Shown here in pieces: positions 36,001 to 39,000 of a stretch of DNA of 64,000 nucleotides. The DNA lies in NCBI RefSeq assembly GCF_016026235.1, contig NZ_CP065613.1; one strand, given 5' to 3'. Made by a program: the position numbers. The stretch's first letter is position 1; each line of letters starts with the position of its first letter. This stretch comes from Escherichia coli. Lineage in GTDB: Bacteria > Pseudomonadota > Gammaproteobacteria > Enterobacterales > Enterobacteriaceae.

Positions 36001-39000
36001 GAAAACGTTTCAAACAGGCTGCTGCCGTAGCCGATGCCGCTGCACTTTCTCGACATCCATGCACTGCAACGCCTTTGTCGGGCAGGCTTCAACACAGGCC
36101 GGCCCCGTCTCCCGATGCCAGCACAGATCGCACTTAATCGCCCTCGCCTTTTTGCGCGAAGAAACGACCTCCATCGCACCAAACGGGCAAGCCAGCATAC
36201 AGCTTTTACAGCCAATGCAACGTGTTTGTTCAACGAAAATATGCCCATGTTCGCGGCTTATCGCGTCAACAGGGCAGACATTCGCGCACGGTGCATCTTC
36301 ACACTGATGACAGGCTACTGCCGTGGTCCAGCTGTGGTCTTTAATGACACGAATACGGGAAATAAACTCGTCTGGTGACAACGCAGCGCAATCCTGATTC
36401 TCCTGATGCGACACTGCGCAAGCCACTTCACAGGTACGGCAACCGATACATTTCGTCGCATCCGCAATAATAAACCGGTTCATGATCACTCCTTTGCACT
36501 AAAACAGCAGAGTGCCAGAGAGCGCGTCCCTACTGCTTTGATCCAACGAAGGAAATGTTAAAGTTTTGGCACTTGTCCAAAGCGTTATGTGATCGCGCCC
36601 TGGTCGTCCCTGACAGTAAACCCCAGTTCATTAGAAATAGCCTGCGCGGTTTCACGCAGAGGTTTCAGGAGATTTTTCTCTCCCACCTGTTTCAGACGTG
36701 ATGTCGAAAGCGAAATCGACACGGCACTACGAATTGATATGTTCCTTGCTGTAACGCCGCTTCCACGCTGCTGGCGTTAAACCGGTGTGTTTGCGAAAAA
36801 TCTGCCGGAAATAGCCAACGTCATTAAACCCGCACAACGCCGCCACTTCCGTGAGCGATCGCGCTTCGCTAATTAACAGCTTTTCGGCTTCGCGCACCCG
36901 CTGGCGATGGATTGCTTCTGTTAACGTCAGATGAAACACCCACCGGTAGACGCGCCCAAGATAATCGGCATTGCAGTACAGCTCGCGGGCCAGAAGCGCC
37001 GTAGAAAGCGGGCGATGATATTGCGTGCGGATCAGTTTCTGCGCTTTCCAGGCAAGGGTGGTGCCTGCGCCATCGGCCTGTTCATCAAGACGCGCGTCAC
37101 GGGTGAGCTGCTGCAAAATGAGCAGCACAATAAACTCCAGCGCCGGAGTGCGTTGATGCTTTTCCTGTTCGCTTAAGAACTGGCGAAACAGGGCCACCAG
37201 CGCCTGCGGATCGACAACCTTCGTTTGTTGCGGCACGCTAAGATGAGTAAGCCAGCGAGGGTCGTTGTCCGGCGCTTTAACCTCAAAATGCAGCCAGTAA
37301 AATTTGAGATCGGCGGGAAAATCCTCCACCCCAACATGTTGTCGGTTCGGCCAGAGTAATAAACTCTCTCCCGCATCGACCAGAAATATCCGTTCTTCTT
37401 CCTGAATCGTTAATCGACCTTTTTCGACAAAGATAATTTCCCATGACTCCAGCCGCCTTGCAGGATGCCTCCCTACGCCACGGGAAATAAATAATCCACC
37501 ATTTTGCACTTTAATCGGTAACGTCATGGATAATTCGAGCATTGATATGTAATTTCCCGCTTATTCATTAATGATTAAACACATTACCTTTTGATTATTA
37601 ATCAAAAATATTAATTTCACCTGATCCATTTCACACTTTTAAATTCAGGTCGGAATCGTCACCTTTTTTTACTCTTTTCTCGCCTTGTTGATATTCCCGT
37701 TCACGGCAGAATTAATCAGGTCATTTCAATAAAACTAAAAATTGCTCCCTATTCACGAGGAATATCTATGACCTCTACACCGATTACTACCGCTGATATC
37801 GCTAAAGGTAAAATTGACGATGCGTTATCTGTACGGGAAAAAATAGGCTACGGCCTGGGTGACGCAGGCGGCACCGTAATAACTTGCCTGATCATGAATT
37901 TTCTCACCTTTTTCTACACCGACGTTTTTGGATTAACTCCGGCGCTGGTTGGCACGCTGTTTATTGCACTGCGCGTGTTTGATGCCATCTCCGACCCGGT
38001 GATGGGCGTCATTGCCGACCGGACGCAAAGTCGCTGGGGGCGCTTTCGCCCGTGGCAGCTATGGATTGCCATTCCCATCGGCATTATCGGCATCCTGACG
38101 TTCACCGTGCCAGATGCCAGCATGGGAGTAAAAATCGCCTGGGCGTTCGGTACTTACCTGCTCCTTTCAGTCGGTTATACCGCCATCAACGTACCGTACT
38201 GCGCGCTGATCAACACCATGACCACCCGCCACAATGAAGTGATCTCCTGCCAGTCCTGGCGATTCGTTCTCTGTGGCGTAGCGGGATTTCTGGTTTCGGT
38301 AGGCTTACCGTGGATGGTAGATCTCTTCGGTCAGGGTAATGCCGCGCGCGGCTATCAATTGGGCGTCGGCGTGCTGTGCGCCATTGCCGTGGTGATGTTC
38401 CTGTGCTGTTTTTTCTGGGTTCGTGAACGGGTGCCACTCTCCACAATGGGGAAATTTACCCTGCGCGAACATCTTGCCGAGCTGCGGAACAACGACCAAC
38501 TGCTGCTGATGCTGGTCATGTCTTTCCTGCTGATTAACGTCTTTAACATTCGCGGCGGTGGGTATATGTACTTCATTACCTACGTCTTACAAGGCAGTAC
38601 GGGCTACACGTCGCTGTTCTTCACCATGGTCACCTTCGCCTCCATTATCGGCTCGGTGATTGTCAGCCCGTTAACGCGGCGTTTCGATACCGTCAAAATT
38701 TACTACTACACCAACCTGCTCCTCGCTGCGCTGGCGGTGTTGATGTGGTTCCTGCCCTCCGGCCCGGCTTATCAAACGCTGTGGCTGGCGGTGATCCTCG
38801 GTAATGGCGTAATTCTTGGCTTCACATTGCCACTGCACTTCTCATTGATGGCCTTTGCCGATGACTACGGCGAGTGGAAAACCCGCGTACGTTCTTCCGG
38901 CATGAACTTCGCCTTCAATCTGTTTTTCATCAAGCTGGCCTGGGCCTCCAGCGCCGGGATCATCAGCCTGCTGTTTATTTTTGTCGCCTACCAGCCAGGC

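What the first reader, a model, noticed from the sequence alone, without database searches (positions are those of the whole stretch)
37590..37606. Perfect 17-bp palindrome in the divergent promoter of the cassette
tttgatta-T-taatcaaa lies between the AraC-like regulator gene and the transporter gene. It is a plausible dimeric regulator operator, though AraC proteins often bind direct repeats, so it could instead be a site for another regulator or a nucleoid protein.
Basis: seen in the sequence. Interest (0 to 1): 0.35.

Follow-up and report, generated by a model that had tools for sequence, protein, structure and literature searches.

The report
Chance palindrome over a conserved promoter box
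The palindrome is real, but only its left half is conserved in related bacteria, where it most likely forms part of the regulator gene's own promoter in an ordinary sugar-operon control region; it is not a symmetric protein-binding site.

Summary
The palindrome exists and is 19 bp, not 17 (TTTTGATTA-T-TAATCAAAA, 37589-37607). It lies between an AraC-family regulator gene and a GPH-transporter/GH127 operon in E. coli. One such palindrome per 64 kb is what chance gives (0.53 expected). In 79 orthologous intergenic regions from about 30 enterobacterial genera, the symmetry is not conserved. The left arm plus centre (TTGATTATTAA/CA) is invariant in 66 species, but the C that pairs with the invariant G occurs in only 16 of 66. 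Perfect arms of 6 bp or more occur in 12 of 66, scattered over at least 5 lineages that have non-palindromic sisters. The conserved box is asymmetric and rigidly spaced: 28.5 bp from an invariant CRP-like site (GATC-N4-TCACA-N-TTT, centre 37627.5). On the regulator strand the box reads AATAAT. My best reading is that it is the -10 region of a CRP-dependent (class II-like) regulator promoter. The surrounding region looks like the ara, rha and mel divergent control regions: the same CRP-like site would sit at about -91.5 of the transporter promoter, with a 47-bp conserved block as the likely binding region for the AraC-type regulator. No transcription start or binding has been mapped, so this is inference. 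The finding is ordinary and of low interest.

The parts
37589..37607 (.). 19-bp perfect palindrome TTTTGATTA-T-TAATCAAAA (the finding, one base longer on each side)
   Evidence: retained in all 6 E. coli alleles read (window, L001, L082-L085), in E. whittamii and in C. amalonaticus; not retained in most other genera
37591..37601 (-). Conserved asymmetric box TTGATTATT(A/C)A, which is the left arm, the centre and 3 nt of the right arm. It is the only part of the palindrome under clear constraint.
   Evidence: columns 0-7 are about 2 bits in 66-68 species; column +11 (37603) has 0.16 bits
37594..37599 (-). AATAAT on the regulator strand: putative -10 hexamer of the regulator promoter (5/6 match to TATAAT, with A-11 and T-7). 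Predicted start near 37587, giving a 45-nt leader.
   Evidence: the only consistently placed -10-like hexamer on that strand, 28.5 bp from the CRP-like centre in 62 species. This is inference; no start site has been mapped.
37620..37639 (.). CRP-like site CCTGATCCATTTCACACTTT, centre 37627.5. GATC, TCACA and TTT are invariant in 79 of 79 species (or nearly so) and all match the CRP consensus. The left TGT is absent.
   Evidence: the consensus is from established knowledge (AAATGTGATCTAGATCACATTT)
37644..37690 (+). 47-bp block conserved in all species (consensus ATCAGGTCGGAATCGTCAYCTTTTTATACTTTTCCCTTCCCTTGTTG): the likely binding region for the AraC-type regulator, overlapping the -35 of the transporter promoter
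   Evidence: the role is inferred from its position and from the ara/rha architecture
37685..37712 (+). Candidate transporter promoter: -35-like TTGTTG (37685-37690), a 16-bp variable spacer, -10-like CAGAAT (37707-37712). Predicted start near 37719. An alternative -10 is TTTACT at 37668-37673 (TATACT in most species).
   Evidence: two conserved hexamers separated by an unconserved spacer of fixed length. The simple consensus scan found nothing at its threshold.
36727..37542 (-). AraC-family transcriptional regulator gene (271 aa)
37768..39168 (+). GPH-family (glycoside-pentoside-hexuronide) cation symporter gene (466 aa)
   Evidence: TIGR00792, 332 bits, above cut-off
39155..41158 (+). Glycoside hydrolase family 127 gene (RefSeq start corresponds to 39179)
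36585..36725 (-). Remnant of plaR (yiaJ), marking the left deletion junction of the locus

Best explanation
The palindrome as a symmetric object is a lineage-specific accident. The functional element is an asymmetric 10-11-bp box, TTGATTATT(A/C)A at 37591-37601, which happens to contain a small self-complementary core (TTA-T-TAA). The box becomes a long palindrome whenever the unconstrained base at 37603 is C and the A/T-rich flanks happen to match. On the regulator's strand the box reads T(T/G)AATAATCAA. I propose that AATAAT (37599 to 37594) is the -10 hexamer of the regulator gene's promoter. This promoter has no -35 element. It would instead be driven by CRP bound at the invariant CRP-like site centred at 37627.5, about -40.5 from a start predicted near 37587. 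That is a class II arrangement like the one I recall for the melR promoter. The same CRP-like site would lie at about -91.5 from the transporter promoter (TTGTTG-N16-CAGAAT, start near 37719). The AraC-type regulator would occupy the 47-bp conserved block between them, as at araBAD and rhaBAD. What is shown: the conservation pattern, the asymmetry, the rigid spacing and the matches to consensus. What is inferred: which proteins bind, and where transcription starts.
For: (1) Asymmetric conservation. In 66-68 box-bearing species, columns 0-7 (TGATTATT) carry 1.7-2.0 bits each. The palindromic partner of the invariant G is A17/C16/G27/T6, or 0.16 bits. (2) Perfect arms of 6 or more occur in 12 of 66 species and arms of 4 or fewer in 54 of 66. 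The palindromic state is scattered over at least 5 lineages of the cassette tree, each with non-palindromic sisters that differ at one base: E. asburiae AEB30 vs TN152, C. youngae CCUG vs ATCC, C. amalonaticus vs Citrobacter Res13. (3) Column permutation shows no excess complementarity at arm positions 1-7. (4) Rigid geometry. The box starts 39 bp before TCACA and 57 bp before block 2 in 61 of 66 species, although the sequence in between is unconstrained (about 0.1-0.4 bits). (5) On the regulator strand, the only -10-like hexamer at a consistent position is AATAAT, 28.5 bp from the CRP-like centre in 62 species. The Mixta variant keeps a -10-like GATAAT one base closer (27.5 bp). (6) All eleven invariant bases of block 1 that fall within the 22-bp CRP consensus match it; the twelfth, the last T of TTT, lies just outside it. 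(7) Species without the box differ over the whole regulator-proximal 75 nt but keep the CRP-like site and everything downstream. They carry another conserved -10-like hexamer (TACACT, CATAAT or TAAAAT) 46.5-48.5 bp from the centre, which would put CRP at about -59 to -60, close to a class I position. This is consistent with promoter turnover around a fixed CRP site. (8) The box 10-mer occurs nowhere else in 717 kb of loci except as GEVIIK codons of sgbE, so there is no sign of a regulon or global-factor motif.
Against: No transcription start, footprint or expression data exist for this locus, and no paper in the library addresses it. The box is more strongly and more widely conserved (10-11 contiguous invariant bp, plus A at +12 in 60 of 66 and a pyrimidine at +10 in 61 of 66) than a -10 hexamer alone requires, so another factor may also read it. 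AATAAT lacks the consensus T at -12. The CRP-like centre falls at -40.5 rather than the canonical -41.5 if the start is 7 nt after the hexamer. The CRP-like site has only GA of its left half-site. The simple promoter scan found no sigma-70 match in 37400-37900. One outer arm pair (columns -2/+14) is complementary more often than permutation predicts (39 of 66 vs 28.3; 0.5% of permutations; not corrected for phylogeny or for ten tests). Long palindromes recur at this spot in different forms: 10+1+10 in E. chuandaensis, and a different 9+3+9 in Trabulsiella.
Confidence: 0.5

Rival explanations
1. The box is an asymmetric binding site (one monomer or half-site) for the cassette's own AraC-type regulator. 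It would be used for autoregulation or looping, like araO1/araO2 or MelR site R, and would overlap the regulator's promoter. This is compatible with the -10 reading and could hold at the same time.
For: Conservation extends beyond a -10 hexamer to 10-11 contiguous invariant bp, plus Y at +10 and A at +12. Spacing to the other conserved blocks is rigid. Autoregulatory sites overlapping the regulator's promoter are known for AraC and MelR (my own knowledge).
Against: The box shares no evident motif with the 47-bp block that is the best candidate for the regulator's sites (compared by eye). About 12 species lack the box yet keep the regulator (57-67% identical) and all downstream blocks. AraC-family monomers usually read two short segments a helical turn apart, not 10 contiguous bp (my own knowledge).
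Confidence: 0.2
2. One reading: the palindrome is a two-fold symmetric operator for a dimeric regulator, either the cassette's own or another repressor, at least in the lineages that have it.
For: A perfect 19-bp palindrome, locally improbable (0.3% of spacer shuffles). It is kept in all E. coli alleles read, in E. whittamii and in C. amalonaticus. Palindromic versions with different outer flanks exist in Enterobacter, Yokenella and Kosakonia (10+1+10 in E. chuandaensis), and Trabulsiella has another palindrome at the same spot. There is weak covariation at columns -2/+14.
Against: Information content is grossly asymmetric: G 1.89 bits against its partner 0.16 bits. 54 of 66 species have arms of 4 or fewer. 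Sister taxa differ in the state by one base. There is no excess complementarity at the seven inner arm positions. Window-wide the palindrome is within chance. The spacing does not fit the FNR/CRP family: TTGAT-N5-ATCAA, not N4. Conservation within E. coli is uninformative at 97-100% overall identity.
Confidence: 0.08
3. The box is a site for a DNA-bending nucleoid protein, IHF, whose consensus WATCARNNNNTTR is itself asymmetric. Bending would help communication across the divergent region.
For: On the regulator strand AATCA(A/G) is invariant, the next 4 nt are variable, and the following 3 are again semi-conserved, which mimics the layout of the IHF consensus. The window has a one-mismatch match at 37584-37596 on the minus strand.
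Against: None of the 64 box-bearing species has the TT of TTR; they have AAA, TAA or AAG. One-mismatch matches are at background level in the window: 129 observed, 101 expected. The invariant TTATT(A/C)A part is not explained by the IHF consensus.
Confidence: 0.07

Closest known systems
melR-melAB divergent control region of E. coli (class II CRP-dependent melR promoter; MelR sites and CRP upstream of melAB)
   Same: An AraC-family regulator gene divergent from a GPH-family sugar transporter operon. A CRP-like site about 41 bp upstream of the regulator's predicted start replaces a -35 element. The activator sites abut the -35 of the structural promoter.
   Different: Nothing here has been mapped experimentally. 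The CRP-like site has a defective left half. One CRP-like site would serve both promoters. No sequence similarity to MelR sites was shown. The comparison with mel rests on my recollection of the literature, not on a tool result.
araC-araBAD and rhaSR-rhaBAD control regions (CRP at -93.5 / -92.5, an AraC-family dimer from about -35 to -75/-81)
   Same: The predicted CRP position (-91.5) and a roughly 45-bp conserved activator region from about -75 to -30 match these architectures.
   Different: The two halves of the 47-bp block are not evidently repeats of each other. An alternative -10 (TATACT, start near 37680) would give a different geometry. The inducer is unknown.
FNR/CRP-family palindromic sites (TTGAT-N4-ATCAA; TGTGA-N6-TCACA)
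   Same: The palindrome contains TTGAT and ATCAA half-sites identical to the FNR consensus halves.
   Different: The spacer is 5 nt, not 4, so the two halves are out of register. The right half is not conserved in orthologues.

Membership tests
Two-fold symmetric operator of a dimeric HTH regulator | Both half-sites conserved (symmetric information content) in orthologous loci | tested here: not met
   Left-arm G is present in 65-67 of 66-68 species (1.89 bits); its partner C in 16 of 66 (0.16 bits). Arms of 4 or fewer in 54 of 66.
Two-fold symmetric operator of a dimeric HTH regulator | Palindrome more frequent than chance | tested here: inconclusive
   Window-wide 1 observed vs 0.53 expected; within the spacer alone P is about 0.003.
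FNR-type site | TTGAT-N4-ATCAA spacing | tested here: not met
   The sequence is TTGAT-TATTA-ATCAA, i.e. N5.
IHF site | WATCAR core | tested here: met
   AATCA(A/G) on the minus strand in 67 of 68 species.
IHF site | TTR element 4 nt downstream of the core | tested here: not met
   None of 64 species has TT; they have AAA 27, TAA 22, AAG 8 and others.
Sigma-70 -10 element (regulator promoter) | Hexamer close to TATAAT with A at -11 and T at -7, conserved in orthologues | tested here: met
   AATAAT (5/6) at the same position in 62 species; Mixta has GATAAT one base closer to the CRP-like centre.
Sigma-70 -10 element (regulator promoter) | A -35 element, or an activator site substituting for it, at the proper distance | tested here: inconclusive
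   No -35 match. A CRP-like site is centred 28.5 bp from the hexamer, at -40.5; canonical class II is -41.5.
Sigma-70 -10 element (regulator promoter) | A transcription start 6-9 nt downstream | not testable with these tools
   No TSS data are available; 37587 +/- 1 on the minus strand is predicted.
CRP binding site (block 1, 37620-37639) | Match to TGTGA-N6-TCACA with flanking T-tract | tested here: inconclusive
   Right half 5/5 plus TTT, and GATC matches the consensus flank. The left half is only GA (CCTGA in E. coli). All eleven invariant bases that fall within the 22-bp consensus agree with it.
CRP binding site (block 1, 37620-37639) | cAMP-CRP binding and CRP dependence of transcription | not testable with these tools
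   Needs EMSA or a crp mutant.
Intrinsic terminator / structured RNA | Stable G+C-rich stem, a T-run, or a match to a known RNA family | tested here: not met
   An all-A/T stem of -4.6 kcal/mol; no terminator-like site; no Rfam match at E<=1.

The most novel reading that the evidence does not exclude
The 10-11-bp invariant box, conserved more widely than a -10 hexamer needs, is the recognition site of an as yet unidentified factor. Long palindromes would then have been selected repeatedly at this spot (E. coli, Enterobacter, Yokenella, Kosakonia, and a differently built one in Trabulsiella), because in those lineages a dimeric form of that factor, or a second repressor, adds a layer of control to a cassette for plant-glycan use.
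Probability: 0.08. Interest if true: 0.4.

Novelty: new member of a known kind. Interest (0 to 1): 0.18.

Why it matters
It matters little beyond annotation. The result warns against reading an A/T-rich palindrome in a promoter as an operator. It also gives a testable map (CRP-like site, regulator region, two promoters) for an uncharacterised AraC/GPH/GH127 cassette. That cassette is found in about 43% of complete E. coli genomes, including O157:H7, and across the Enterobacteriaceae. It probably serves uptake and hydrolysis of a plant-derived glycoside: GH127 enzymes include beta-L-arabinofuranosidases (titles and abstracts listed). It also shows that the K-12 pseudogenes ysaC and ysaD are the stumps of this cassette.

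Tried and rejected
(1) FNR/CRP reading of the palindrome itself: the half-sites match FNR but the spacer is N5, and the right half is not conserved. (2) IHF: the core matches, but the TTR element is never met, and one-mismatch matches are at background level. (3) A plus-strand promoter using TTGATT as -35: no conserved -10 lies 16-18 bp downstream; columns 37614-37619 carry 0.4 bits or less. (4) Regulon or global-factor motif: the extra copies of the box in the loci are coding sequence (GEVIIK of sgbE). (5) Hairpin, cruciform, terminator or known RNA: a weak all-A/T stem, no terminator, no Rfam hit. (6) Cassette junction or mobile-element end: the deletion junctions are at about 36725/36727 and between 41041 and 41252, far from the palindrome. 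(7) Literature on the cassette: three full-text searches and one paper read returned nothing on this locus. (8) Conservation within E. coli: the palindrome is intact in all six alleles read (the window plus five loci), but at 97-100% identity this carries no weight. (9) I considered looking for published O157:H7 TSS maps but did not pursue it: there was no way to map coordinates cheaply, and the regulator is probably silent in laboratory media.

Full report
**Observation.** The reported sequence tttgattattaatcaaa is at 37590-37606. The perfect palindrome is one base longer on each side: TTTTGATTA-T-TAATCAAAA, 37589-37607, 9+1+9. It lies in the 225-bp, 32% GC spacer between an AraC-family regulator gene (36727-37542, minus strand) and a GPH-family symporter gene (37768-39168, plus strand), which is followed by a GH127 glycoside hydrolase gene. 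In dinucleotide shuffles of the whole window, palindromes of this quality (arms of 9 or more, spacer 0 or 1) occur 0.53 +/- 0.76 times against 1 observed. For arms of 8 or more the figures are 2.25 against 2. Only when this one spacer is considered alone is the palindrome improbable, at 0.3% of shuffles.

**Context.** The window is E. coli chromosome: malS-avtA-ysaA, then a plaR (yiaJ) remnant, then regulator / transporter-GH127, then yiaT-yiaU. The spacer is found in 2321 of 5426 complete E. coli genomes, O157:H7 among them. K-12 has plaR-yiaK...sgbE at this place. Its two small pseudogenes are stumps of the cassette: ysaC is the 3' end of the regulator gene (94.8% identity) and ysaD is an internal piece of the GH127 gene (89.5%). 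So the ancestral locus carried both gene sets, and E. coli lineages have lost one or the other. K-12 has lost the entire control region discussed here.

**The comparative test.** A profile of the regulator retrieved 80 loci, one genome per species, from about 30 enterobacterial genera. Of these, 78 have the same divergent regulator / transporter-GH127 arrangement, and 78 of the 80 gave a usable spacer, which makes 79 with the window.
- 66-68 of the 79 spacers carry the box TGATTATT(A/C)A at a fixed offset of 49-51 nt from the regulator's ATG, at about 2 bits per position.
- The right arm is not conserved. The position that should pair with the invariant G is A17/C16/G27/T6 (0.16 bits), and the position pairing with the invariant A is T32/C29/A5.
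- Perfect arms of 6 or more are found in 12 of 66 species and arms of 4 or fewer in 54 of 66.
- On a neighbour-joining tree of transporter plus regulator, the palindromic state appears in at least five separate places, each next to non-palindromic sisters that differ by one base.
- Permuting the right-arm columns among species shows no excess complementarity at the seven inner positions. One outer pair (-2/+14) shows a nominal excess (39 of 66 vs 28.3), uncorrected for phylogeny and multiple tests.
- About 12 species (Buttiauxella, Cedecea, Hafnia, Mangrovibacter, Atlantibacter, one C. freundii, and Trabulsiella in part) lack the box altogether.

What is conserved is therefore an asymmetric box covering the left arm, the centre and three bases of the right arm. 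The two-fold symmetry is incidental.

**What the box is.** The rest of the spacer is informative.
- Invariant in all 79 sequences are GATC (37623-37626), TCACA (37631-37635) and TTT (37637-39). All eleven of these bases that fall within the 22-bp CRP consensus aaaTGTGATCtagaTCACAttt match it; the last T lies just outside it. Only the left TGT is missing. I read this as a CRP site with one perfect and one weak half, centred at 37627.5.
- A continuous 47-bp conserved block follows (37644-37690), then a 9-nt unconserved stretch.
- Then comes a conserved TGCAGAATnAAT. TTGTTG (37685-37690) and CAGAAT (37707-37712), 16 bp apart, form a weak, activator-dependent-looking promoter with a start near 37719.
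- In that frame the CRP-like site is at -91.5 and the 47-bp block spans about -75 to -30. This is the araBAD/rhaBAD layout: CRP at -93.5/-92.5 and an AraC-family dimer from about -35 outward (established knowledge).
- A second candidate -10 (TATACT in most species, TTTACT in E. coli, 37668-37673) would give a start near 37680 and put CRP at -52.5, which is the wrong face of the helix. I consider that model less likely but not excluded.

On the regulator's strand the box reads T(T/G)AATAATCAA.
- AATAAT (37599 to 37594) is a 5/6 match to the -10 consensus, with the key A-11 and T-7.
- It is the only -10-like hexamer that occupies a constant position on that strand, 28.5 bp from the CRP-like centre in 62 species. 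The one divergent box (Mixta) keeps GATAAT one base closer.
- There is no -35. With a start 7 nt downstream (37587) the CRP-like centre is at -40.5, one base from the canonical class II position.
- The spacing between the box and the CRP-like site is identical in 61 of 66 species, although the DNA between them is unconstrained. That is expected if the two elements must be in register.
- The species without the box differ over the whole regulator-proximal 75 nt but keep the CRP-like site and everything beyond it. They carry another conserved -10-like hexamer 46.5-48.5 bp from the centre, putting CRP near -59 to -60, close to a class I position. This looks like promoter turnover around a fixed CRP site, and it places the box in the regulator's expression module rather than in the transporter's.

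**Limits.** None of this has been mapped. The box is conserved over more positions than a -10 needs: 10-11 contiguous bases, plus a pyrimidine at +10 and A at +12. So a second reader of the same DNA, most plausibly the regulator itself in autoregulation, cannot be excluded and may coexist with the promoter function.

**Alternatives tested and rejected.**
- IHF: the WATCAR core is present, but the TTR element is never met (0 of 64 species) and one-mismatch matches are at background level.
- FNR: the half-sites match but the spacer is N5.
- A regulon motif: the other copies of the box are codons of sgbE.
- A hairpin or known RNA: an all-A/T stem of -4.6 kcal/mol and no Rfam match.
- Literature: searches returned nothing on this cassette.

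**Verdict.** The palindrome is real, but it is a by-product: a conserved, asymmetric promoter-region box with a self-complementary core, sitting in A/T-rich DNA whose free positions happen to complete the symmetry in E. coli and a few other lineages. The region is a new, unstudied example of the familiar CRP plus AraC-family divergent control region. Interest is low.

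Noticed in passing
window 36715-36830 and 40852-41041; K-12 locus L086 14802-15107: The K-12 pseudogenes ysaC and ysaD are remnants of this cassette: the 3' end of the AraC-type regulator gene (94.8% identity) and an internal GH127 fragment (89.5% identity). 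K-12 deleted window 36831-40851. The window strain deleted plaR (N-terminal part) through sgbE. These are reciprocal deletions of an ancestral locus. In five loci from four genera (Salmonella diarizonae, Klebsiella, Superficieibacter, E. wuhouensis), sgbE lies directly after the regulator gene.
   Followed up: yes
L066 (Trabulsiella odontotermitis), intergenic positions 44-64 counted from the regulator ATG: A differently built 9+3+9 perfect palindrome, TATTATTGA-ATA-TCAATAATA, occupies the same place in the spacer. E. chuandaensis (L017) has a 10+1+10 version of the E. coli one. Recurrent long palindromes at this spot are mildly surprising, even in A/T-rich DNA.
   Followed up: partly
window about 37554-37562: TTCCCGCTT, 12-20 nt upstream of the regulator's ATG, is conserved in the box-bearing species. 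As a Shine-Dalgarno sequence (GGGAA on the regulator strand) it is unusually far from the start codon. It could instead be an autoregulatory site in the leader.
   Followed up: no
L045, L061, L064, L067-L069, L071, L078 (intergenic positions 33-38); L076, L079 (from position 34); L073 (from position 29): Species lacking the box share a conserved AGTGTAGA motif (TACACT on the regulator strand) or a CATAAT/TAAAAT equivalent, about 47.5 bp from the CRP-like centre. This may be a class I-type replacement promoter. The distance from the ATG to block 2 stays at 106 nt even though the sequence is unrelated.
   Followed up: partly
window 37623-37626: The GATC inside the CRP-like site is invariant in 79 of 79 species. 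It matches the CRP consensus flank but is also a Dam methylation site.
   Followed up: no
window 39155-39179: The longest GH127 ORF starts at 39155 and overlaps the transporter stop codon by 14 nt. RefSeq annotates the start at the position equivalent to 39179. Orthologue alignments begin anywhere between residues 1 and 13 (residue 40 in one locus), so the true start is uncertain.
   Followed up: no
window 16499-16526: The longest perfect palindrome in the window, AAAAAGCCTGCCAGATGGCAGGCTTTTT (13+2+13), has a G+C-rich stem flanked by an A-run and a T-run. It looks like a bidirectional intrinsic terminator.
   Followed up: no
L001 (E. coli FDAARGOS_943) 9780-10944: In the strain closest to the window, an IS1A element has truncated yiaT, with an adjacent deletion reaching an L-threonine dehydrogenase (yiaY-like) gene and selB. 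This is not present in the window.
   Followed up: no
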